In this document: in pieces, positions 1 to 61,130 of the stretch
Numbering within the stretch: position 1 is the first letter of the stretch
Layout of the letters: every line of letters starts with the position of its first letter
Assembly: GCF_963921235.1 (NCBI RefSeq)
Contig: NC_086107.1
Coordinates: forward strand, 97,776,001-97,840,000
Reading direction: 5' to 3'
Source: Mobula hypostoma
Lineage: Eukaryota
Length of the DNA stretch: 64,000 bases
Notes under the pieces: generated by a model
The model's input: the letters and a program-made list of their open reading frames with translations, nothing else
Told to the model about the DNA's origin: nothing
The model's database searches: none
Translations under genes and position numbers: made by a program

Positions 1-1009
1 ACTGGCGACAGTGTGAGACTGTAGGGGTGTGTGGCCGCACTGAGTTACACTGGCGACAGTGTGAGACTGTAGGGGTGTGTGACCGCACTGAGTTACACTG
101 GCGACAGTGTGAGACTGTAGGGGTGTGTGGCCGCACTGAGTTACACTGGCGACAGTGTGAGACTGTAGGGGTGTGTGGCCGCACTGAGTTACACTGGCGA
201 CAGTGTGAGACTGTAGGGGTGTGTGGCCGCACTGAGTTACACTGGCGACAGTGTGAGACTGTAGGGGTGTGTGGCCGCACTGAGTTACACTGGCGACAGT
301 GTGAGACTGTAGGGGTGTGTGGCCGCACTGAGTTACACTGGCGACAGTGTGAGGCTGTAGGGGTGTGTGGCCGCACTGAGTTACACTGGCGACAGTGTGA
401 GACTGTAGGGGTGTGTGGCCGCACTGAGTTACACTGGCGACAGTGTGAGACTGTAGGGGTGTGTGGCCGCACTGAGTTACACTGGCGACAGTGTGAGGCT
501 GTAGGGGTGTGTGGCCGCACTGAGTTACACTGGCGACAGTGTGAGACTGTAGGGGTGTGTGGCCGCACTGAGTTACACTGGCGACAGTGTGAGACTGTAG
601 GGGTGTGTGGCCGCACTGAGTTACACTGGCGACAGTGTGAGACTGTCGGGGTGTGTGGCCGCACTGAGTTACACTGGCGACAGTGTGAGACTGTAGGGGT
701 GTGTGGCCGCACTGAGTTACACTGGCGACAGTGTGAGACTGTAGGGGTGTGTGGCCGCACTGAGTTACACTGGCGACAGTGTGAGACTGTAGGGGTGTGT
801 GGCCGCACTGAGTTACACTGGCGACAGTGTGAGACTGTAGGGGCGTGTGACCCCACTGAGTTACACTGGCGACAGTGTGAGACTGTAGGGGCGTGTGGCC
901 GCACTGAGTTGCACTGGCGACAGTGTGAGGCTGTAGGGGCGTGTGGCCGCACTGAGTTGCACTGGCGACAGTGTGAGACTGTAGGGGCGTGTGACCACAC
1001 TGAGTTACA
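1..1009. repeat. 48-bp tandem satellite/minisatellite, about 21 units visible, truncated by the window start
   Basis: Unit actggcgacagtgtgagactgtaggggtgtgtggccgcactgagttac repeats head-to-tail almost perfectly; variants accumulate in the last 4 units. Confidence 0.98.
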
Positions 1010-1353
1010 GTAGTGTGTAGAAGTCTTAGGCATTTATACATAGCTAGAGATTTGCACAGTACTGTAGTAATTTTATGTATTGCACTGTACTGCTGCCACG
1101 AAACAAAAATAAATTTCATGACACAAGTGAGTGCTGATAAACCTGATTCTGTTATGGGTCTCTATTGTGGACTGAGAGGGGAATCATGGTTGGGAAAAGG
1201 GGAAGGGAGAGGGGAGGGAATGGGGAACACCAGAGAGATATTCTGTAATGATCAATAAACCAAGTGTTTGGAATCAAATGACCTTGCCTGGTGTCTCAGG
1301 GCTGGGTGTGTCTGCACCCGCACCACCCCCTGTTCCTGGCACTCCTCTGCCAC
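1006..1353 (+). mobile_element. Left half of a composite non-autonomous element (Tc1/mariner-type hairpin MITE + LINE-tail segment + unique segment), interrupted by the ERV
   Basis: Joined to 13682-13852 it matches the reverse complement of the uninterrupted copy at 39680-40216. Confidence 0.85.
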
Positions 1354-1950: not shown

Positions 1951-3670
1951 CTAGGCCACTGAGCCAAAAACCTGTCCCTTCATGTCTGAGACAGGAAAAA
2001 AGACCCAGGAGCCTTTACAGTCTACTGCCACATTATCATTTCCATCCCGTACATCTTGCATGTCGTGTAAGCTGTAACAATACATCATCGGTGTTTCTCT
2101 TTCCACTGGGCTTGATTCAGCAATTTCCAGGAGCATCGGAAAGCATTTTGTTGCGGCCCGCACTATAAGAGACTTGAGACACGGAAGAAAACAGCACAAA
2201 ACAATCGCACAGCTTACCAACACAATACCTACAGTTATCGCTATCTTGGTTAGCCATGCTCCCCATCCCCCTAGTTTACTATCTAACCAGTCAAATAACT
2301 GACGTCCAAACCCTGCATTCTGTCTAACTTCTCTTCTTAGACTTTTCAATTTGTTCATTGCTCTGGTAAATGATCCCTCTGGACTAGTGTTATTTGGTAT
2401 AAAAGTACAGCACTGTTCTCCAAACATTACACAAACTCCTCCTTTTTCTGCTAACAGCCAGTCTAACACCTGTCTATTCTGCCACACCACTCTACTAGTT
2501 GCATCCAGCTGTTGTCCTAGTGCCTCCAGCGCAACATCGGTGTAGTTAACGAATCTCTGTTGATTATAATATATATAATTTATCCACTCAACGTTTTTGC
2601 TAACCCCTACTATAGGTATAATCGCTTCCCAGCCAGCAGCAATCTCATTTATTGCCAAACTCGTTAGGTATACCTCTCGGCTGTCCTATACTATCGATTC
2701 GGATCGTTGGGTCAGGTTCATATTTTCCCCTCTTCCGCCACAGTGTCTGCTGCTTCGGAGCATCAAATTGTACTTCAGGGGATAGTACAACTTCTTGAAT
2801 CAGCATAACCCGTGTACATGTACCTGCCCAACTAAGGGGAAGTGTGGATCTCAGGCCTCCCTCCATTCCGCACAACCACCAAGTGTCCGCTAATGGAATG
2901 TTCTGGACATCCAACGCACCTTCGGGTGGAGGGGTACCTACTATGTATCTTCGGCCTGGGGTTACATCCCAAGTCTGCATGCAGTTACCCCTAAAATGGC
3001 CAACCACAAAAGCACCTGTCCGTGTAAAGCATTCATTATTCAAATGATCCTGCATTATCAATTTTCGCACTACGGGGGTCTGACTTCTTTCACTAATGGC
3101 CCAAGGTCTGCTATAATTATATTTATGGGCGAGCACATTTCGATCGAATTGCAAGGAGGCTTGGGATAGCATACACCAATAAGGGCAATATGGGGTGTTA
3201 TCAATACATTTCTGATAACAAGGATCTGCCCTGCTACAAATTCCCATGCTGCAAGTCTTGACTACACTTGGACACTGCCGCACACACTGCCCCCTCCGCT
3301 CCTTTCACCATTGCGTGCAGGTGGAGGGGTTATAAGGCATGGGGGCTACGTGTTGCACAGGCTTCGCCCTGGAGCACAGATAACAATTCTGTCTCCCCAT
3401 CATTCCTGCTGTGTATTGTGCCCATTGGTACCACTGGCTAGTACGTGTCTGTTGTCACTGCAAAGAGGTAACTGTTGCGCTCCGCTTACTCCTTTCTTTT
3501 AAGGTTTGCGGAGTCCGAACATTCCTATGCCATATCGGCCAAATTAATGGTTTCCAAGTCCATACTGGGGTTTGTGGGTGTATCATCCCAAGGGGCAAAA
3601 CTGGTCGCTCCCAAGTCATCCACACTGTCTGAAGGAATACTACTATCCACAACCCCATCCTTAGGGTCAT
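1951..3670 (-). pseudogene. env: ERV env (gamma-type SU/TM), disrupted by stops and a frameshift
   Basis: Signal-like MGLWIVVFLQTVW, basic RSKR, CYLC (CxxC), basic RKR, IDSIGQPRGIPNEF, KNVEWINYIYYNQQRF, ISD WQNRQVLDWLLAEKGGVC, CX6CC (CVMFGEQCC) and a TM helix. Stop near 3455, frameshift near 2650. Confidence 0.93.
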
Positions 3671-4812
3671 CTGACCTGTTCTCAAAACCAAAAACTTCCC
3701 TTATCATCTGATCACACTCCTGTGGTGTAGTGACAACTTCTTGTTCTTCTTGTCTATCCCCTGCTATCCGTTCCTCTTCACCACTTACCTCGGGCTCCAC
3801 ACCTGGCTGTACCTGTGAGACTGCTCTGGTGCAGTGATTGAGATGGTACCAGGTGGAGCGTCCCTCTACCTGAACTGCAGTGGGTGACGCCTTGGTTACC
3901 GTAAAAGGTCCTTCCCTTCTTGGTTCGTTCCACTTTCTTCGAAAAGCTGGCACATAGACCTGATCTCCTGGATTGATTGGTCCTTCCCTTTGCACGATCT
4001 CCGGCTCTTTCTGTTTTTCCTGTGCATAGATAGACTAATGTATCATGGTTAGTTACTGCACGTATTGTTTTAGTTCTACTTCCAATTGATCCAAGCTAGG
4101 CCCTTTGTATGGTCCTCTCCACTGGGGCACTGGCATGGGCCTTCCGGTTAGCATTTCATGCGGTGTTAGACACGTCACTTGATTAGTTTGCATGCGGTAA
4201 CTCATTAACGCTAATGGCAGCGCGTTGATCCAGTTGAGTTTAGTACCCGCACAAATTTTATTCAGTTTGGTTTTTAGAGTCCCGTTAATTCTTTCTACCA
4301 TGCCCTGCAAATGAGGGTGATACACACATCCAAACCTCTGATTTATTCTTAGTGCTTGCAATACTAATTTGACCACCTTTTGGATAAATGCTGAACCGTT
4401 GTCTGAGCTGACTTCTTTAGGTATTCTGAATCTTGGGATCACCTCATTTGTCAGGAATTTTACCACTGTTCCTGCCCCTTGATCTTTCGAGGGTACCACT
4501 TCTACCCATCTACTGAATCTGTCAATTACTACTAACATGTATCTTTTCCCTCTTGTTGTCCTTATCATATCTACGTAGTCAATCACTAAATGTTTAAATG
4601 GCCCTTCGGGCACAGGTTCATGGCCTATTGGGGTTGTAATTCCTTTCCGAACATTATTCTGTACACATACCTCGCACTGCAACAGCACATGGTCTACTGA
4701 AGCCTGTAAATAAGGCGACCAAAAACCGTCCTCTTCTATTTTCCTTATCACTTCCCCCCTTGCACAATGATCCATCCCATGCACTTATGCTGAATCAGTA
4801 TAAATGTCTACT
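3525..4812 (-). pseudogene. ERV integrase copy A plus C-terminal domain (GPY/F-like), preceded by an RNase H stub
   Basis: HGMDH..CEVC zinc finger, IDYVD / SDNG / GMVER catalytic motifs, PRREGPF; in-frame stop at about 4053. Confidence 0.93.
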
Positions 4813-6713
4813 GTAACATGTAACCCGCGGCCCGACAGTGGAGTCAGGCATTGTTCAGCCGGCTCTACGAGGATTCATGGACGACATCGCTGTAACAACT
4901 GTGTCACATGCCCAAGCAAGATGGGTATTGGAAACCCTGGGTAATGTGGCCACTTGGGCGAGGATGTCCTTCAAGGCTAAGAAGTCCAGGTGCATGGTGA
5001 TCAGAAAGGGCAAAGTTACTAGCAAGTTTAGCCTCCAAGTTCAGGGTGAGGTCATCCCTTCCATCGAAGATAACCTGATAAAATGCTTGGGGAAGTGGTT
5101 TAATGTGTCACTGACAGATGGGGCCAATGTCACCAATGCTGTGAAGCAGACAGAGGAATGGCTGAAGAAGATCGACAAATCCGGACTTCCAGGTAAATTC
5201 AAGACCTGGCTGTACCAATACGGCATTCTGCCCAGGCTTCTCTGGCTCTTCACACTTTATGAGTTCCCCATGACTGCCGTAGAGGGCATCGAGAGGAAAA
5301 CCAACAAGCACCTGTGGAGATGGTTTGGAGTTCCCCCAAGCTTCTCTTCAGTGGGCCTCTACTTTCGTTCTGGGCAACTGCAGCTTCCCCTGTCATCTAT
5401 TGCGGAGGAATTCAAGGTGGCAAAATACAGAGTTTTATTAAGCTTGAGAGATTCTAATGACATCTTGGTAAAGCAAGCAGGCGTTACAACCAGATCTGGG
5501 CGCAAGTGGGCAGCCAACGCAGCTGTGGAGGAGGCAGTGTGTTCTCTGAAGCTGCGAGATATTATCGGCAACCCCTGCGTCGGGCGGCAAGGCCTCGGCT
5601 CAGTTCACTTCCAGAAGTGGGGAAACGCAAGCATAAGGAGCAGGTGAGACATGGTACAGGCAGAAGTACGGATCCGTGAGGAAGAGAAGCGGATGTCAAA
5701 GGCAGTGGAACAGGGGTCCCAGGGTGCCTGGACAAAATGGGATCTGCCTAAGCGCAAGATCGCATGGGCAGAGTTATAGAGACTGGAGCCCTTCCGTATT
5801 TCCTTCCTCTTGCGATCTGTGTATGACACCCTTCCTTCACCATTACATCTGTACACATGGGAGATGAGAGAGGACCCGAACTGTAAGCTCTGTGGTCAAA
5901 AGGGGACACTGGCTCATATACTGTCTGGGTGTATAACAGCTCTAACTCAAGGACAGTATAGGTGGCGCCATGATAAGGTGCTTCTGGCTCTTGCTGACAC
6001 ACTAGAGCGTGAGAGATACAAGAAGAGGACGGCTGGCACAGATTTGAGGAAGGCCACCATCTTCATCAAAGAGGGAGCTAGGCCTTTCGTAACCAAACAA
6101 CCAAAGCTCAATCTGCTGCTAACGGCCAGGTCCTGGGAGATGAGGGTCGATGTGGGAAGGAGGTTGCAGTTCCCGGATGTGGTGCACACAACCCTACGCC
6201 CGGAAATTGTACTGTGGTCAACAGAAGACAAGAAAATAATTCTGGTTGAATTGACTGTGCCATGGAAGGAGGGATGGGAAGAGGCCCATGAGAGAAAAGC
6301 CTTGAAGTACCAGCCCTTACTGCAGGACTGTCAAGACAAGGGATGGCAGGCATGGTTGTTCCCTGTGGAGATCGGCTGCAGAGGTTTCCCAGCCAAATCA
6401 GCATGGCGGTTGTTGTCAGATCTGGACCTAGATGAAAGAAGCAAAAAACAAGCAGCTCGTAGGATGGTGGAAGAGGCAGAACAAGCCTCTTGTTGGATTT
6501 GGAGTAGGCGAGAGGAGGGGAGCTGGAAGCCAGGAGCAGATGGGCAGTGATTTGGCCACCACTGCCGGCCCACCAACTGGAGAGTGTCGTGGTTAAGGGT
6601 CGAAACACTCAGTGAAGGTTGGGAACCACCTGATGACATCTGCTCCTGGCTGAAGGCTGCGGTTACCTTATAAGGTAACTGGAGGATGGACCCTAACTGG
6701 TGTATGTAACAAG
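4813..6713 (+). mobile_element. Hero-clade (RLE-type) non-LTR retrotransposon, 5'-truncated within RT, with intact 3' end (copy A)
   Basis: GFMDD, CLGKWF, LPGKFK, LPRLLW, RSVYDTLPSP, CKLCG..AHILSGC zinc knuckle, WRHDKVL, RPEIVLW..VELTVPW..ERKALKY..PVEIGCRGF endonuclease. CGA>TGA stop at 5645-5647 (CGA in copies B and C); ORF ends at 6550; about 160-nt 3' UTR. Confidence 0.9.
6582..6694 (+). ncRNA. Non-circularly permuted hammerhead-ribozyme-like RNA in the Hero 3' UTR
   Basis: Stem III GAGUGU(6582-87)/ACACUC(6605-10); GUC cleavage triplet (C6588); stem I GUGGUU(6589-94)/AACCAC(6624-29); CUGAUGA (6630-36); stem II AGGGUC(6596-6601)/GACCCU(6689-94); GAAA (6602-05). Confidence 0.75.
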
Positions 6714-7490
6714 TAATGTATCATGGTTAGTTGCTGAATGTATTGTTTTAGTTCTACTTCCAATTGTTCCAAGCTAGGTCCTTTGTATGGTCCTCTCCAC
6801 TTGGGCACTGGCATGGGCCTTCTGGTTAGCATTTCATGCGGTGTTAGACACGTCACTCGATTAGTTTGCATGCAGTAACTCATTAAAGCTAACGGCAGCA
6901 CGTCAATCCAGTTGAGTTCAGTACCCGCACAAATTTTATTCAGTTTGGTTTTTAGAGTCCCGTTAATTCTTTCTACTATGCCCTGCGAATGAGGGTGATA
7001 CACACATCCAAACCTCTGCTTTATTCTTAGTGCTTGCAATACTAATTTGACCACCTTTTGGATAAATGCTGAACCGTTGTCTGAGCTGACTTCTTTAGGT
7101 ATTCTGAATCTTGGAATCACCTCATTTGTCAGGAATTTTACCACTGTTCCTGCCCCTTGATCTTTCGAGGGTACCACTTCTACCCATCTACTGAATCTAT
7201 CAATTACTACTAACCTGTATCTTTTCCCTCTTACTGTCCTTATCATATCTACGTAGTCAATCACTAAATGTTTAAATGGCCCTTCGGGCATGGATATATA
7301 GCCTATTGGGGTTGTATTTCCTTTCCGAACATTATTCTGTGCACATCCCTCGCACTGCAACAGCACATGGTCTACTGCAGCCTGTAAATAAAGCAACCAA
7401 AGACAGTCCTCTTTTATTTTCCTTATCACTTCCCCCCTTGCACAATGATCCATCCCATGCACTTATGCCGAATCAGTATAAATGTCTACT
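6714..7490 (-). pseudogene. ERV integrase copy B (777-bp duplicate of 4036-4812)
   Basis: Colinear with 4036-4812 with scattered substitutions and the same RNaseH/IN fusion junction. Confidence 0.93.
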
Positions 7491-8491
7491 GTAACATGTA
7501 ACCCGCGGCCCGACACTGGAGTCAGGCATTGTTCAGCCGGCTCTACGAGGATTCATGGACGACATCGCTGTAACAACTGTGTCACATGCCCAAGCAAAAT
7601 GGGTATTGGAAACCCTGGGTAATGTGGCCACTTGGGCAAGGATGTCCTTCAAGGCTAAGAAGTCCAGGTGCATGGTGATCAGAAAGGGCAAAGTTACTAG
7701 CAATTTTAGCCTCCAAATTCAGGGTGAGGTCATCCCTTCCATCGAAGATAACCTGATAAAATGCTTGGGGAAGTGGTTTAATATGTCACTGACAGATGGG
7801 GCCAATGTCACCAATGCTGTGAAGCAGACAGAGGAATGGCTGAAGAAGATCGACAAATCCGGACTTCCAGGTAAATTCAAGACCTGGCTGTACCAATACG
7901 GCATTCTGCCCAGGCTTCTCTGGCTCTTCACACTTTATGAGTTCCCCATGACTGCCGTAGAGGGCATCGAGAGGAAAACCAACAAGCACCTGTGGAGATG
8001 GTTGGGAGTTCCCCCAAGCTTCTCTTCAGTGGGCCTCTACATTCGTTCTGGGCAACTGCAGCTTCCCCTGTCATCCATTGTAGAGGAATTCAAGGTGGCA
8101 AAATACAGAGCTTTATTAAGCTTGAAAGATTCTAATGACATCTTGGTAAAGCAAGCTGGCGTTACAACCAGATCTGGGCGCAAGTGGGCAGCCAACGCAG
8201 CTGTGGAGGAGGCAGTGTGTTGTCTGAAGCTGCGAGATATCATCAGCAACCCCTGCGTCGGGCGGCAAGGCCTCGGCTCAGTTCACTTCCAGAAGTGGGG
8301 AAACGCAAGCATAAGGAACAGGCGAGACATGATACAGGCAGAAGTACGGAACTGTGAGGAAGAGAAGCGGATGTCAAAGGCAGTGGTACAAGGGTCTCAG
8401 GGTGCCTGTCCAAAATGGGATCTGCCTAAGCGCAAGATCGCATGGGCAGAGTTATGGAGACTGGAGCCCTTCCGTATTTCCTTACTCTTGC
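7491..8491 (+). mobile_element. Hero fragment copy B (same 5' junction as A, 3'-deleted)
   Basis: Same start gtaacatgtaacccgcgg; breaks at ...ctcttgc|tgagggtga into integrase. Confidence 0.92.
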
Positions 8492-8993
8492 TGAGGGTGA
8501 TACACGCATCCCAAACCTCTGCTTTATTCTTAGTGCTTGCAATACTAATTTGACCATTTTTTGGATAAACGCTGAACTGTTGTCTGAGCTGACTTCTTTA
8601 GGTATTCCGAATCTTGGGATCACCTCATTTGTCAGGAATTTTACCACTGTTCCTGCCCCTTGATCTTTCGAGGGTACCACTTCTACCCATCTACTGAATC
8701 TGTCAATTACTACTAACATGTATCTTTTCCCTCTTATTGTCCTTATAATATCTACGTAGTCAATCACTAAATATTTAAATGGCCCTTCGGGCACAGGTAT
8801 ATAGCCTATTGGGGTTGTATTTCCTTTCCGAACATTATTTTGTGCACATCCCCCGCACTGCAACAGCACATGGTCTACTGAAGCCTGTAAATAAGGCGAC
8901 CAAAGACAGTCCTCTTTTATTTTCCTTATCACTTCCCCCCTTGCACAATGATGCATCCCATGCACTTATGCCGAATCAGTATAAATGTCTACT
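8492..8993 (-). pseudogene. ERV integrase partial copy C
   Basis: HHCC and first catalytic motifs present; same junctions as the next unit. Confidence 0.9.
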
Positions 8994-9994
8994 GTAACAT
9001 GTAACCCGCGGCCTGACACTGGAGTCAGGCATTGTTCAGCCGGCTCTACGAGGATTCATGGACGACATCACTATAACAACTGTGTCACATGCCCAAGCAA
9101 GATGGGTATTGGAAACCCTGGGTAATGTGGCCACTTGGGCGAGGATGTCCTTCAAGGCTAAGAAGTCCAGGTGCATGGTGATCAGAAAGGGCAAAGTTAC
9201 TAGCAAGTTTAGCCTCCAAGTTCAGGGTGAGGTCATCCCTTCCATCGAAGATAACCTGATAAAATGCTTGGGGAAGTGGTTTAATGTGTCACTGACAGAT
9301 GGGGCCAATGTCACCAATGCTGTGAAGCAGACAGACGAATGGCTGAAGAAGATCGACAAATCCGGACTTCCAGGTAAATTCAAGACCTGGCTGTACCAAT
9401 ACGGCATTCTTCCCAGGCTTCTCTGGCTGTTCACACTTTATGAGTTCCCCATGACTGCCGTAGAGGGCATCGAGAGGAAAACCAACAAGCACCTGTGGAG
9501 ATGGTTGGGAGTTCCCCCAAGCTTCTCTTCAGTGGGCCTCTACATTCGTTCTGGGCAACTGCAGCTTCCCCTGTCATCTATTGCAGAGGAATTCAAGGTG
9601 GCAAAATACAGAGTTTTATTAAGCTTGAGAGATTCTAATGACATCTTGGTAAAGCAAGCAGGCGTTACAACCAGATCTGGGCGCAAGTGGGCAGCCAACG
9701 CAGCTGTGGAGGAGGCAGTGTGTTCTCTGAAGCTGCGAGATATCATCAGCAACCCCTGCGTCGGGCGGCAAGACCTCGGCTCAGTTCACTTCCAGAAGTG
9801 GGGAAACGCAAGCATAAGGAACAGGCGAGACATGGTACAGGCAGAAGTACGGATCCGTGAGGAAGAGAAGCGGATGTCAAAGGCAGTGGAACAAGGGTCC
9901 CAGGGTGCCTAGACAAAATGGGATCTGCCTAAGCGCAAGATCGCACGGGCAGAGTTATGGAGACTGGAGCCCTTCCGTATTTCCTTACTCTTGC
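8994..9994 (+). mobile_element. Hero fragment copy C (1503-bp period with copy B)
   Basis: Same two junctions as copy B; private TAG stop at 9910-9912. Confidence 0.92.
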
Positions 9995-11238
9995 TGAGGG
10001 TGATACACGCATCCAAACCTCTGCTTTATTCTTAGTGCTTGCAATACTAATTTGACCATCTTTTGGATAAACGCTGAACCGTTGTCTGAGCTGACTTCTT
10101 TAGGTATTCTGAATCTTGGGATCACCTCGTTTGTCAGGAATTTTACCACTGTTCCTGCCCCTTGATCTTTCGAGGGTACCACTTCTACCCATCTACTGAA
10201 TCTATCAATTACTACTAACATGTATCTTTTCCCTCTTATTGTCCTTAACATATCTACATAGTCAAAATTAAATGTTTAAATGGCCCTTCGGGCACGGGTA
10301 TATGGCCTATTGGGGTTGTAATTCCTTTCCGAACATTATTTTGTGCACATCCCTCGCACTGCAACAGCACATGGTCTACTGAGGCCTGTAAATAAGGCGA
10401 CCAAAAACGTCCTTTTTTATTTTCCTTATCACTTCCTCCCTTACACAATGATCCATCCCATGCACTTATGCCGAATCAGAATAAATGTCTACTTTCTCAC
10501 CTTCCATCATTTCGCATGCTGCTGTCAGGGCTTTGATTTCCACTAACTGGGCGGAACACGGTTGGGGAAAAGCTTCCATTCTAATGGTCTTAAAGCTTGT
10601 CTGATCCTGCTGCACTACTGAGAGACCTGCATGGTTTCCATCATAATCCCGATAACAGGAGCCATCTACAAACAAAACCTTTTTACCTTCCTCTTCTAGT
10701 GGTTCGGATCGTAAATCTGCTCTTAATTTGGCAAATGCCATTGTTTCCCTTACACAGTCACGGGGTTCTCCTTCATGACCCAAGGGGACATAATCAGCTA
10801 TGTTATGGTAGTACATCTCTGTATAGTTATATCTGGAAATGTCAATAACATCTGATATACTGTTATTCTGGCTGGTGTCAACACGAATTTATCTCTTTCC
10901 AGTAATCCTGTTACCTTGTGGTGTGTGTACAGGATCACAGGGTAGCCCATGGTCACGGATGATGCCTTTTCATAGGCATAGTACAATGCTACTAGTCCCT
11001 GATAACAGGGTGGGTACCCCTGAGCCACTTCATCCAATTTCGCACTATAGTTTGCTATAGGTTGTTTTGCTTTTCCTGTGCCTGTCTCTTGTGTTAAAAC
11101 TGCTGCAACATAGCCTTCCTGCCAGTTAGATACATACAAATGAAAGTCCTTTTCATAGTCAGGCAAAGCTAACGCTGGAGCTGACTGCAATTCCTGTTTA
11201 GTAGTATTAATCGCTATTTCCACCTCCCTTATTATCAC
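9995..11238 (-). pseudogene. ERV pol remnant: RT connection/tether + truncated RNase H + partial integrase copy D
   Basis: KQELQSAPALALPDY, VLTQ..PIANYS, LFVDGS, SAQLVEIKAL, VDIYSDSA* fused directly to VHGMDHC; no protease or YxDD seen. Confidence 0.9.
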
Positions 11239-61004: not shown

Positions 61005-61130
61005 GCTGGGGCCTGATCCGCCCTGGCTGGGTCACCTGGGTGATAATGTCTGAAAGACCCGAGGCACCCAACGACCCCAGGTTACATCACTGCTGATGTG
61101 TCCCAGCACATCCTATGATGTATCTCAGCA
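61005..61130 (+). mobile_element. Isolated 3'-UTR relic, probably of a second Hero-like family, with a decayed permuted hammerhead layout
   Basis: gggtg(61038-42)/caccc(61065-69), taatgt(61044-49)/acatca(61084-89), gagg in place of GAAA, ctgctga in place of CTGATGA, in the same order and similar spacing as 6582-6636. Confidence 0.55.

What the first reader, a model, noticed from the sequence alone, without database searches (positions are those of the whole stretch)
6573..6713. Non-circularly permuted (pseudoknotted) hammerhead in the 3' UTR of a Hero retrotransposon
Seen: starting 32 nt after the ORF stop, every hammerhead core element is present with three perfect 6-bp stems: GAGUGU-C-GUGGUU (III, cleavage site, I), AGGGUC-GAAA-CACUC (II, III) and AACCAC-CUGAUGA ... 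GACCCU (I, II). Established: types I-III are circular permutations of the order UH > CUGAUGA > GAAA. Here the order is UH > GAAA > CUGAUGA, which needs a pseudoknotted or dimeric fold. A 52-nt insert between CUGAUGA and stem II is closed by CAUCU/GGAUG and holds a palindromic hairpin (GGUUACCUU-AU-AAGGUAACU, 6661-6680). CCAAC/GUUGG could extend stem III. Ribozymes of non-LTR elements are mostly known from 5' ends. Cleavage after C6588 would remove the last about 125 nt, yet this integrated copy retains them. Inference: a regulated self-cleavage switch, a generator of a small 3' RNA, or a hammerhead fold reused as the RT-binding site. From memory, rearranged hammerheads have been reported in animal genomes, so novelty of this variant and its Hero context must be checked.
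Basis: partly seen in the sequence, partly recalled or inferred. Interest (0 to 1): 0.88.

Follow-up and report, generated by a model that had tools for sequence, protein, structure and literature searches.

The report
Rearranged hammerhead ribozyme in Hero-like retrotransposons
The start of this retrotransposon's 3' untranslated region folds into a hammerhead ribozyme core wired in an order not described before, and the same fold is conserved in related elements found in marine and other metagenome contigs.

Summary
Stems I and III, the cleavage site C6588 and the CCAAC/GUUGG helix are correct. Stem II is not.

In 65 of 80 related metagenome loci the same motif follows the ORF. The conserved, covarying partner of GGGUC (6597-6601) is GGCCC upstream (6567-6571), not the downstream GACCCU.

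The sequence straight after CUGAUGA pairs with the last ORF codons (helix H, 6528-6542 with 6637-6651). A hairpin, P0 (6543-6566), holds the stop codon. The motif therefore spans 6528-6651.

Six helices covary: 92% of cells paired against 32-42% in slid controls. The core follows hammerhead rules: N7 is free and N17 is G in only 1 of 59.

UH>GAAA>CUGAUGA is the published type-SGC order (Eckert et al. 2023, metatranscriptomes only). This form is a circular permutation of type SGC, opened between A9 and G10.1, inside the block that paper treated as indivisible.

I found no paper linking hammerheads to Hero elements.

Cleavage is inferred, not shown. The public runs gave contigs only, so RNA ends could not be read.

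Also seen: palindromic P0 loops and frequent head-to-tail tandem copies.

The parts
4813..6713 (+). 5'-truncated, decayed copy of a Hero-like (RT + CCHC + restriction-like endonuclease) non-LTR retrotransposon. The protein match runs 4823-6547 with in-frame stops.
   Evidence: tblastn matches residues 581-1155 of a 1155-aa relative at 67% identity. ORF list. Relatives in teleosts, amphioxus and bivalves. Boundaries from self-BLAST and contigs of 4 runs.
6528..6542 (+). Helix H, 5' strand. It lies in the last codons of the ORF and pairs with 6637-6651 (15 bp).
   Evidence: 10 of 10 modelled pairs show compensatory changes.
6543..6566 (+). Hairpin P0: 7-bp stem 6543-49/6560-66, with no unpaired base before or after it. 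It holds the stop codon TGA 6548-50. Its loop carries the palindrome UGGCCA.
   Evidence: 7 of 7 pairs show compensatory changes. A palindrome of at least 6 nt is in 34 of 51 distinct P0 loops, against 15% of shuffled loops.
6567..6571 (+). Stem II, 5' strand (G10.1 onward), GGCCC. It pairs with GGGUC 6597-6601, with one G-U pair.
   Evidence: Fixed position about 20 nt before U16.1 in the relatives. 3 of 5 pairs are compensatory and G10.1-C11.1 is conserved. Family copies carry A at 6568, which turns the G-U into A-U.
6573..6577 (+). Helix Ih strand CCAAC, pairing with GUUGG 6618-22. It corresponds to the helix that ties the outer ends of stems I and II in type-SGC hammerheads.
   Evidence: 4 of 5 pairs compensatory. 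Topology compared with PMC10085705.
6582..6588 (+). Stem III 5' strand GAGUG, then U16.1 (6587) and C17 (6588). Predicted cleavage is between 6588 and 6589.
   Evidence: 5 of 6 pairs compensatory and U16.1-A15.1 is UA in 41 of 42. N17 is C 23, U 22, A 11, G 1.
6589..6594 (+). Stem I 5' strand GUGGUU, pairing with AACCAC 6624-29 (pseudoknot).
   Evidence: 5 of 5 pairs compensatory, also on an alignment whose model did not contain this stem.
6597..6610 (+). Block G: stem II 3' strand GGGUC (6597-6601), GAAA (6602-05), stem III 3' strand CACUC (6606-10).
6618..6636 (+). Helix Ih strand GUUGG (6618-22), G6623, stem I 3' strand AACCAC (6624-29), CUGAUGA (6630-36).
   Evidence: In one search: C3 59/59, U4 57/59, G5 59/59, A6 59/59, N7 free, G8 57/59, A9 59/59.
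6637..6651 (+). Helix H, 3' strand. It starts with no gap after A9.
   Evidence: Offset 0 after CUGAnGA in most of the 54 loci tabulated.
6652..6713 (+). 3' tail: hairpin 6661-6680, then a conserved UGUAU (6701-05) near the element's end.
   Evidence: Relatives show a covarying hairpin and ..UGUAU.. before the end, by eye. Contigs of 4 runs leave at 6712-6717.
61006..61106 (+). Second, decayed copy of the same motif from another subfamily. Its core is mutated (GAG G in place of GAAA, CUGCUGA in place of CUGAUGA) and no ORF lies beside it.
   Evidence: Covariance-model hit of 19.4 bits, E 0.007. Alignment row. No tblastn hit nearby.

Best explanation
Window 6528-6651 is a hammerhead ribozyme domain with a strand order not described before. 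It forms the start of the 3' UTR of a Hero-like non-LTR retrotransposon.

Shown: the strand order is II(5') - Ih - [III(5')-U-C17-I(5')] - [II(3')-GAAA-III(3')] - Ih - I(3')-CUGAUGA. This is the published type-SGC hammerhead circularly permuted, so that the RNA enters and leaves between A9 and G10.1. At that point two helices are joined with no unpaired base. One is helix H (ORF end with the bases straight after CUGAUGA). The other is hairpin P0 (stop codon in its stem, palindrome in its loop). All six helices covary, and the core obeys hammerhead rules across relatives down to 33% protein identity.

Inferred:
- H-P0 and II-core-III form two coaxial stacks joined like a four-way junction, which keeps A9 stacked on G10.1.
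- The RNA cuts itself between C6588 and G6589.
- In read-through transcripts of the frequent head-to-tail arrays, this cuts out unit RNAs. Their two ends stay paired through H, II, III and Ih (about 31 bp).
- The palindromic P0 loops let two RNAs kiss, which would favour template switching and array formation.
- Reverse transcription still starts at the 3' tail of uncut RNA.

The confidence given is for the fold being a conserved hammerhead that self-cleaves. The fold alone I put at about 0.97, and the processing role in tandem transcripts at about 0.35-0.4.
For: - Chance excluded: 0 hits in 300 shuffles at 5/5/4 bp or stricter.
- Conservation: the covariance model, built on nested helices only, finds the motif in 65 of 80 loci at E<1e-5. 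The misses include 8 loci with under 20 nt after the protein match.
- Covariation on 43 distinct sequences: 92.1% of cells paired against 32-42% slid; score 0.619 against 0.07-0.12; 34 of 38 pairs changed on both sides; 0 of 500 shuffles reach the score.
- Stems I and II were not in the model, yet show 91.2% paired against 25-46% slid, and 0.614 against 0.05-0.14.
- Swap control: the three stems total a mean 13.96 bp with a locus's own partners, against 7.68 bp with another locus's partners, over 2352 swaps.
- Core in 59 distinct hits: C3, G5, A6 and A9 59/59; U4 and G8 57/59; N7 is U37/A12/C8/G2; N17 is C23/U22/A11/G1; G10.1 57/59. 5 of the 7 G12 losses are G>A in a CpG.
- Helix H starts at offset 0 after CUGAnGA and is 10-15 bp long in most of the 54 loci tabulated.
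- Type-SGC ribozymes with the same I-to-II linker and I/II-tying helix cleave in vitro (PMC10085705 sections 13-14).
- Tandem next copy in 10 of 20 loci examined.
- One junction where an upstream copy stops at C17, give or take 1 nt.
Against: - No cleavage data. All 24 runs found were held as contigs, which cannot show RNA ends.
- No natural or engineered hammerhead that I know of, or found, has helices inserted between A9 and G10.1. The type-SGC paper states that known alignments have at most 1-2 nt there. Activity of this junction is therefore unproven.
- Integrated copies, including this 5'-truncated one, contain the whole motif and end about 125 nt past the site, so the reverse-transcribed RNA was uncut.
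- For the Penelope-like element hammerhead, uncut RNA was the main substrate and no reads ended at the site (PMC11167929 passages).
- U at position 17 is common (22 of 59). My recollection is that U17 is a less favoured cleavage-site base.
- The 43 sequences of the first alignment were picked because they had GAAA and CUGAnGA. Invariance of those letters in alignment A2 is therefore by construction. Only the model-based set is informative, and the model itself favours the consensus.
- 14 of 59 hits have a broken core.
Confidence: 0.64

Rival explanations
1. The hammerhead-shaped fold is kept as the recognition structure for the element's reverse transcriptase or ribonucleoprotein during target-primed reverse transcription. 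Cleavage is absent, suppressed or incidental.
For: - It is the main conserved structure of a short 3' UTR and sits just upstream of the conserved 3' tail.
- The templates that were copied into DNA were uncut.
- In a Penelope-like element, catalytic mutants did not change insertion in vitro (PMC11167929 passages).
Against: A protein-binding scaffold has no known need for exactly the hammerhead catalytic set. Nor would it need freedom at N7 and avoidance of G at N17 (1 of 59), which are rules of catalysis.
Confidence: 0.2
2. The active ribozyme forms only between two RNA molecules. The palindromic P0 loops hold a dimer together, and the pseudoknotted stems are exchanged between partners, as proposed for the minimal hammerheads of Penelope-like elements.
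For: - P0 loops carry palindromes of at least 6 nt in 34 of 51 distinct hairpins, against 15% of shuffles, with at least 8 different palindromes.
- Penelope-like element hammerheads are thought to act as dimers (PMC4209133 abstract).
- A triple-crossing fold may be easier to reach by strand exchange.
Against: - All strands needed are present in one 124-nt stretch closed by a 15-bp helix.
- Monomeric type-SGC ribozymes with the same crossings cleave during transcription.
- 17 of 51 P0 loops lack a palindrome of at least 6 nt; by eye several of these differ from one by a single letter.
Confidence: 0.12
3. One reading: stem II is formed with the downstream GACCCU (6689-94), across a 52-nt insert closed by CAUCU/GGAUG.
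For: Perfect 6-bp complementarity in this copy.
Against: - Downstream partners occur at chance level: 16 of 44 with G-U allowed in 100 nt.
- By eye I saw no such partner in L002 or L003; the script finds a G-U-allowed one in L004 and L005.
- CAUC belongs to helix H, which covaries with the ORF end.
- GACCCU lies in the family's 3'-terminal hairpin region.
Confidence: 0.03
4. The match is a chance assembly of short motifs with no function.
For: Short core words are common. At 4/4/4 bp with G-U allowed, shuffles give 36 hits in 300 windows.
Against: 0 of 300 shuffles at the stricter settings. The motif is present with covariation in 65 of 80 related loci.
Confidence: 0.01

Closest known systems
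Type-SGC hammerhead ribozymes (HRIMA-1 motif and variants; Eckert, Friedrich, Weinberg and Weinberg, Nucleic Acids Res 2023, PMC10085705)
   Same: - Order: cleavage-site block, then GAAA block, then CUGAnGA.
- Stem I 5' strand joined to stem II 3' strand by a short linker.
- A further helix ties the far ends of stems I and II.
- All three core stems cross each other.
- All hammerhead core letters are kept.
- The window meets the published RNAMotif descriptor in stem lengths (III 5-6, I 6, II 5), UH, a linker of 1-2 nt (allowed 0-8), CGAAA, and a 13-nt spacer before stem I 3' (allowed 0-15).
   Different: - In type SGC, stem II's 5' strand follows CUGAUGA directly or after one U. Here it lies upstream of the whole motif, and CUGAUGA runs straight into helix H, so the ends sit between A9 and G10.1.
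- There are two extra helices (H and P0).
- The host is an animal retrotransposon's 3' UTR overlapping the ORF end. Type-SGC data come from metatranscriptome contigs, thought to be circular RNA replicons (Supplementary Note 1).
Hammerheads of Penelope-like elements and retrozymes (Cervera and de la Pena 2014, PMC4209133; Frangieh et al. 2024, PMC11167929)
   Same: - A hammerhead carried by a eukaryotic retroelement that sits in head-to-tail or partial tandem arrays.
- The ribozyme overlaps an ORF boundary.
- Uncut RNA is used for insertion.
- Possible dimer action.
   Different: - Those are type I-like minimal hammerheads in the flanking repeats, next to the start codon, in elements with a GIY-YIG endonuclease.
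- This one is pseudoknotted, sits at the stop codon, and is in an element with a restriction-like endonuclease.
HDV-like ribozymes at the 5' ends of R2 and other non-LTR elements (recalled; Ruminski et al. 2011 and Eickbush and Eickbush 2010 were not read here)
   Same: A self-cleaving ribozyme built into a non-LTR element with a restriction-like endonuclease, thought to free the element RNA from a co-transcript.
   Different: A different ribozyme class, and at the 5' end. Rfam gave no hit of any ribozyme family in the window or in 12 related loci.
Discontinuous hammerhead in mammalian Clec2 3' UTRs (recalled; Martick et al. 2008, not read here)
   Same: A hammerhead in a 3' UTR, with a long stretch between its parts.
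   Different: That one keeps the ordinary strand order and lies in a cellular mRNA.

Membership tests
Hammerhead ribozyme | Core letters C3 U4 G5 A6 N7 G8 A9, G12 A13 A14, the A15.1-U16.1 pair, and N17 not G | tested here: met
   The window has all of them. In 59 distinct model hits: 59, 57, 59, 59, free, 57, 59; 52, 58, 57; 57 and 55; N17 is G once.
Hammerhead ribozyme | Three helices I, II and III meeting at the core, supported by covariation, with a G10.1-C11.1 closing pair | tested here: met
   I has 5 of 5, II 3 of 5 and III 5 of 6 pairs with changes on both sides. G10.1-C11.1 is GC in 35 of 43. Confirmed on an alignment whose model lacked stems I and II.
Hammerhead ribozyme | CUGAnGA joined directly (0-2 nt) to the 5' strand of stem II | tested here: not met
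   A9 runs into helix H, and G10.1 is reached from hairpin P0 upstream. The published statement of the rule is in PMC10085705 section 13.
Hammerhead ribozyme | Site-specific self-cleavage 3' of N17 | not testable with these tools
   Only contigs were available for the runs found.
Hammerhead ribozyme | Match to the Rfam hammerhead models | tested here: not met
   No hit at gathering score in the window or in 12 loci, and none at E up to 10 around the site. This is expected for a strand order that those nested models cannot describe.
Type-SGC hammerhead (Eckert et al. 2023) | Order S block, G block, C block, with the published spacings | tested here: met
   Descriptor read.
Type-SGC hammerhead (Eckert et al. 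2023) | An intact C block: stem I 3' strand, CUGAUGA(U)G, stem II strand, then the 3' strand of the I/II-tying helix | tested here: not met
   The stem II strand and the tying-helix strand lie upstream of the S block. This is a circular permutation of the type-SGC order.
Hero clade of non-LTR retrotransposons | Single ORF with RT followed by a CCHC motif and a restriction-like endonuclease | tested here: met
   RVT_1 is weak on the fragment. Full-length relatives carry PF00078 and PF13966. Invariant C35, C38, H46, C51 and conserved acidic and lysine positions in alignment A1.
Hero clade of non-LTR retrotransposons | Placement within the Hero clade in an RT phylogeny with reference elements | not tested
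   No reference Hero sequences were available. The spread of hits over teleosts, amphioxus and bivalves fits what I recall of Hero. I therefore write 'Hero-like'.

The most novel reading that the evidence does not exclude
Hero-like LINEs carry an active hammerhead of a further, seventh strand order, with the catalytic strand split between A9 and G10.1 by a four-way junction. The ribozyme, together with a kissing-loop dimerisation hairpin built into it, resolves read-through transcripts of tandem arrays into unit RNAs. The paired ends of those RNAs allow ligation to circles or template switching. That would make tandem arrays a product of the ribozyme, and would extend the circular-RNA, rolling-circle biology of retrozymes and Penelope-like elements to a true non-LTR retrotransposon clade.
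Probability: 0.22. Interest if true: 0.95.

Novelty: new variant of a known kind. Interest (0 to 1): 0.86.

Why it matters
- Hammerhead strand orders were thought complete at three, then six, on the assumption that three blocks cannot be broken. This motif breaks one block, at A9/G10.1, and replaces the join with two stacked helices. If active, it widens what counts as a hammerhead and shows that descriptor searches miss such forms.
- It would be the first non-circularly permuted hammerhead tied to a known genetic element and host lineage (animals). That gives this class a testable biological role.
- It would also be the first hammerhead reported, as far as my searches show, in a non-LTR element with a restriction-like endonuclease. 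It sits at the stop codon rather than at the 5' end.
- The built-in palindromic loop and the frequent tandem copies suggest a link between ribozyme, RNA dimerisation and array formation. That link can be tested with a 130-nt RNA.

Tried and rejected
- Own genome: none is held for this window.
- Earlier notes of this scan: nothing by sequence, place or words.
- Viral contig scan with the protein: no match.
- Rfam: no ribozyme family in the window, in 12 loci, or in one 3' UTR-to-5' UTR spacer.
- RNA ends. The one run search returned 24 runs, all held as contigs and mostly of guessed type. The four I laid (X1, X2, X5, X20) give no table of molecule starts or ends, no joints, and nothing usable about expression or cleavage.
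- A stem II formed directly after CUGAnGA: checked by eye. At most 2-3 bp in a few loci, so rejected.
- Alternative pairing of helix H's 3' strand (CUCC) with a downstream GGAG as a switch: present in the window, L002 and L003 but not in L004 or L005, by eye. Left open as weak.
- Search for lone halves of the motif, which would mark copies that begin at G1.1 or end at C17. Two half-profiles over all loci found only L068 (ends at C17), L072 (internal deletion) and L022 (contig end). The other lone halves lay within full covariance-model hits, so I read them as sensitivity failures of the short half-profiles. The loci were chosen around ORF 3' ends, so the test has little power.
- Minimum-free-energy folding cannot draw the pseudoknots. 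It returns H, P0 and stem II with z = -4.55.
Full report
**1. The observation**

The ORF stop is TGA at 6548-50.

A descriptor script for the order UH > GAAA > CUGAUGA finds one hit in the window, on both strands, at 6/6/5 Watson-Crick base pairs. It finds none in 300 dinucleotide shuffles at 6/6/5 or 5/5/4. At 4/4/4 with G-U allowed, the shuffles give 36 hits. My extrapolation is about 1e-6 per window. That is not negligible over a scan of many windows, so conservation had to decide.

**2. Surroundings**

The element is a 5'-truncated, decayed copy, 4813-6713. It matches residues 581-1155 of 1155-aa relatives at 67% identity. Those relatives carry RVT_1 and zf-RVT and come from teleosts, amphioxus and bivalves. 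Alignment A1 shows an invariant CCHC and conserved endonuclease positions. I call it Hero-like, because its place in an RT tree was not tested.

It lies on the + strand between repeated pieces of a minus-strand endogenous retrovirus. 4036-5813 matches 6714-8491, and 4312-5813 matches 8492-9994. Only one copy of the 3' end is present.

The breakpoint at 6713|6714 is the family's true 3' end. Contigs of four public runs cover the stretch up to 6712-6717 and then leave into different flanks.

**3. What is published**

The order UH > GAAA > CUGAUGA is the type-SGC hammerhead of Eckert, Friedrich, Weinberg and Weinberg (PMC10085705). I read sections 7, 13, 14, 15 and 18, and supplement parts 1 and 8.
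- Five type-SGC RNAs cleave at the predicted site.
- 583 sequences are known.
- Supplementary Note 1 says that all rearranged hammerheads come from assembled metatranscriptomes.
- The authors assume three unbreakable blocks, because known alignments have at most 1-2 nt between CUGAnGA and the adjoining stems.

The window meets their RNAMotif descriptor except for that last point. 'Type-SGC' occurs in no other paper of the library. No paper holds both 'hammerhead' and 'Hero'.

**4. Relatives**

An alignment of the C-terminal protein region (A1) retrieved 80 metagenome loci. In 54 of them, GAAA followed 21-29 nt later by CUGAnGA lies about 55-100 nt after the ORF end in most, and up to about 210 nt in a few. 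Reading these side by side changed the anatomy in three ways.
- **Helix H.** The bases straight after CUGAnGA pair with the last ORF codons. The helix is 10-15 bp long, starts at offset 0 and sits at a constant distance in most of the 54 loci tabulated. In the window it is 6528-6542 with 6637-6651.
- **Hairpin P0.** Next comes a 7-bp hairpin, 6543-66, that holds the stop codon.
- **Stem II.** P0 is followed directly by the real 5' strand of stem II. In the window this is GGCCC, 6567-71, opposite GGGUC. In relatives the pair changes to GCUCC/GGAGC, GACUC/GAGUC, GGGUC/GACCC and GGGGC/GCCCC.

It lies between the stem II strand and stem III on one side, and just before stem I's 3' strand on the other. 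That is the position of the helix that ties stems I and II together in type SGC.

The order II(5')-Ih-S-G-Ih-I(3')-CUGAnGA is therefore the type-SGC circle cut open between A9 and G10.1.

**5. Tests of the structure**

On 43 distinct sequences (A2), counted:
- 92.1% of cells pair, against 32-42% when partners are slid.
- The covariation score is 0.619, against 0.07-0.12.
- 34 of 38 pairs change on both sides.
- 0 of 500 shuffles reach the score.
- Pairs with changes on both sides, per helix: H 10/10, P0 7/7, II 3/5, Ih 4/5, III 5/6, I 5/5.

A covariance model holding only the nested helices finds the motif in 65 of 80 loci at E<1e-5. This includes loci that lack the exact core words.

On that alignment (A3), stems I and II were not in the model. 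They pair in 91.2% of cells, against 25-46% slid, with a score of 0.614 against 0.05-0.14.

A swap control gives 13.96 bp with a locus's own partners, against 7.68 bp with another locus's partners.

**6. The core**

In 59 distinct model hits:

| Position | Count |
|---|---|
| C3 | 59 |
| U4 | 57 |
| G5 | 59 |
| A6 | 59 |
| N7 | U37 / A12 / C8 / G2 |
| G8 | 57 |
| A9 | 59 |
| G12 | 52 |
| A13 | 58 |
| A14 | 57 |
| A15.1 | 57 |
| U16.1 | 55 |
| N17 | C23 / U22 / A11 / G1 |
| G10.1 | 57 |
| C11.1 | 49 |

Five of the seven G12 losses are G>A within CGAAA, the usual decay of a methylated CpG. 45 of 59 cores are intact.

Freedom at N7 and avoidance of G at N17 are rules of hammerhead catalysis. This is why I favour an active ribozyme over a mere scaffold.

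Two caveats apply. The A2 set was chosen by the core words. The model also favours the consensus.

**7. How it would fold (inference)**

H, P0 and stem II follow each other with no unpaired base. The strand H(5')-P0(5') is continuous, and so is II(3')-GAAA. A9 to H(3'), and P0(3') to G10.1, are the two exchanging strands.

That is the layout of a perfect four-way junction with two coaxial stacks, H on P0 and II on the G-A pairs and III. A9 could then stay stacked on G10.1. The remaining connections are those of type SGC, which is known to be active.

**8. What it would do**

- The cut would fall 38 nt past the stop codon.
- DNA copies keep the whole motif, so the reverse-transcribed RNA was uncut.
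- In 10 of 20 loci examined, the next copy's ORF starts about 280-430 nt after the previous stop in nine, and about 1050 nt in L062, head to tail. L004 and L002 are different subfamilies sitting side by side.
- Cutting read-through transcripts of such arrays would give unit RNAs whose ends stay paired by about 31 bp.
- The P0 loop carries a palindrome of at least 6 nt in 34 of 51 distinct hairpins, against 15% of shuffles. There are at least eight different palindromes: UGAUCA, UGGCCA, UGUACA, UCAUGA, GACGUC, CCUAGG, AGUACU and CAUAUG. Such a loop cannot pair within its own hairpin, so I read it as a kissing-loop contact between two RNAs. L002 and L004 share UGGCCA.
- In L068 an upstream partial copy stops at C17, give or take 1 nt, and is joined to a 5'-truncated copy. 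This is what a template switch onto the 3' end of a cleaved RNA would leave. It is a single case.
- The Penelope-like elements are the nearest analogy. They form tandem arrays, their hammerhead overlaps the start codon, cleavage is helped by protein, and uncut RNA is the main substrate (PMC4209133 abstract; PMC11167929 passages).

**9. What could not be done**

No whole genome was held. All public runs that hold the stretch were kept as contigs, so RNA ends at 6588/6589 could not be looked for. Cleavage, dimer action and any role in array formation remain untested.

**10. Verdict**

The fold and its conservation are, in my judgement, established (about 0.97). I put activity as a self-cleaving ribozyme at about 0.65, and a processing role in tandem transcripts at about 0.35-0.4.

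It is a new variant of a known kind: a hammerhead, but in a strand order outside the six published ones and in a new host element.

Noticed in passing
window 4036-10493: A minus-strand endogenous-retrovirus integrase fragment and the Hero-like RT fragment are repeated together. 4036-5813 matches 6714-8491 at 96%. 4312-5813 matches 8492-9994 at 97%. 4312-4812 matches 9995-10493. This looks like one insertion with a 777-bp duplicated target piece, followed by unequal exchange and a deletion variant of 1503 nt.
   Followed up: partly
window 1951-4784 (minus strand): Retroviral integrase and envelope-like ORFs, the latter with a transmembrane-subunit CX6CC-type motif, belonging to the endogenous retrovirus into which the Hero-like copy is inserted. 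There are frameshifts between the pieces.
   Followed up: no
window 61006-61106: A decayed, ORF-less 3' fragment of another Hero-like subfamily (GGGUC/GACCC stem II, UGAUGU/ACAUCA stem I type). The same motif is recognisable, but the core is mutated.
   Followed up: partly
L006, L008, L009, L011, L013, L016, L031, L054: about 40-70 nt after the motif (for example L009:1420-1470): A conserved, covarying pair of hairpins, CUGG-NNNN-CCAG UGAC (U)UCCAG-GAAAGA-CUGGA UGACAACC, lies just ahead of the next tandem copy's ORF in the loci where one follows. It is probably the structured 5' end of the element. No Rfam family matches it.
   Followed up: partly
L068:965-1250: An upstream partial copy ends at the predicted cleavage site (C17 or C1.1, ambiguous by 1 nt). 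It is joined directly to a 5'-truncated copy that starts near RT residue 447.
   Followed up: partly
P0 loops of the motif in the loci; window 6550-6559: The hairpin that holds the stop codon carries a 6-12-nt palindrome in its loop in two thirds of distinct sequences. The palindrome differs between subfamilies.
   Followed up: yes
window 1-1116: A tandem repeat with a 48-nt period, about 23 copies at 97-99% identity. It gives a spurious weak Pfam hit (KCTD H1) when translated.
   Followed up: no
L004 and L002 (one contig, ORF ends 3739 nt apart); L062 and L063 (one contig, 4365 nt apart): Full-length Hero-like copies sit head to tail. In the first pair the two copies belong to different subfamilies, so at least some arrays arise by insertion next to an existing copy rather than by copying one template twice.
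   Followed up: partly
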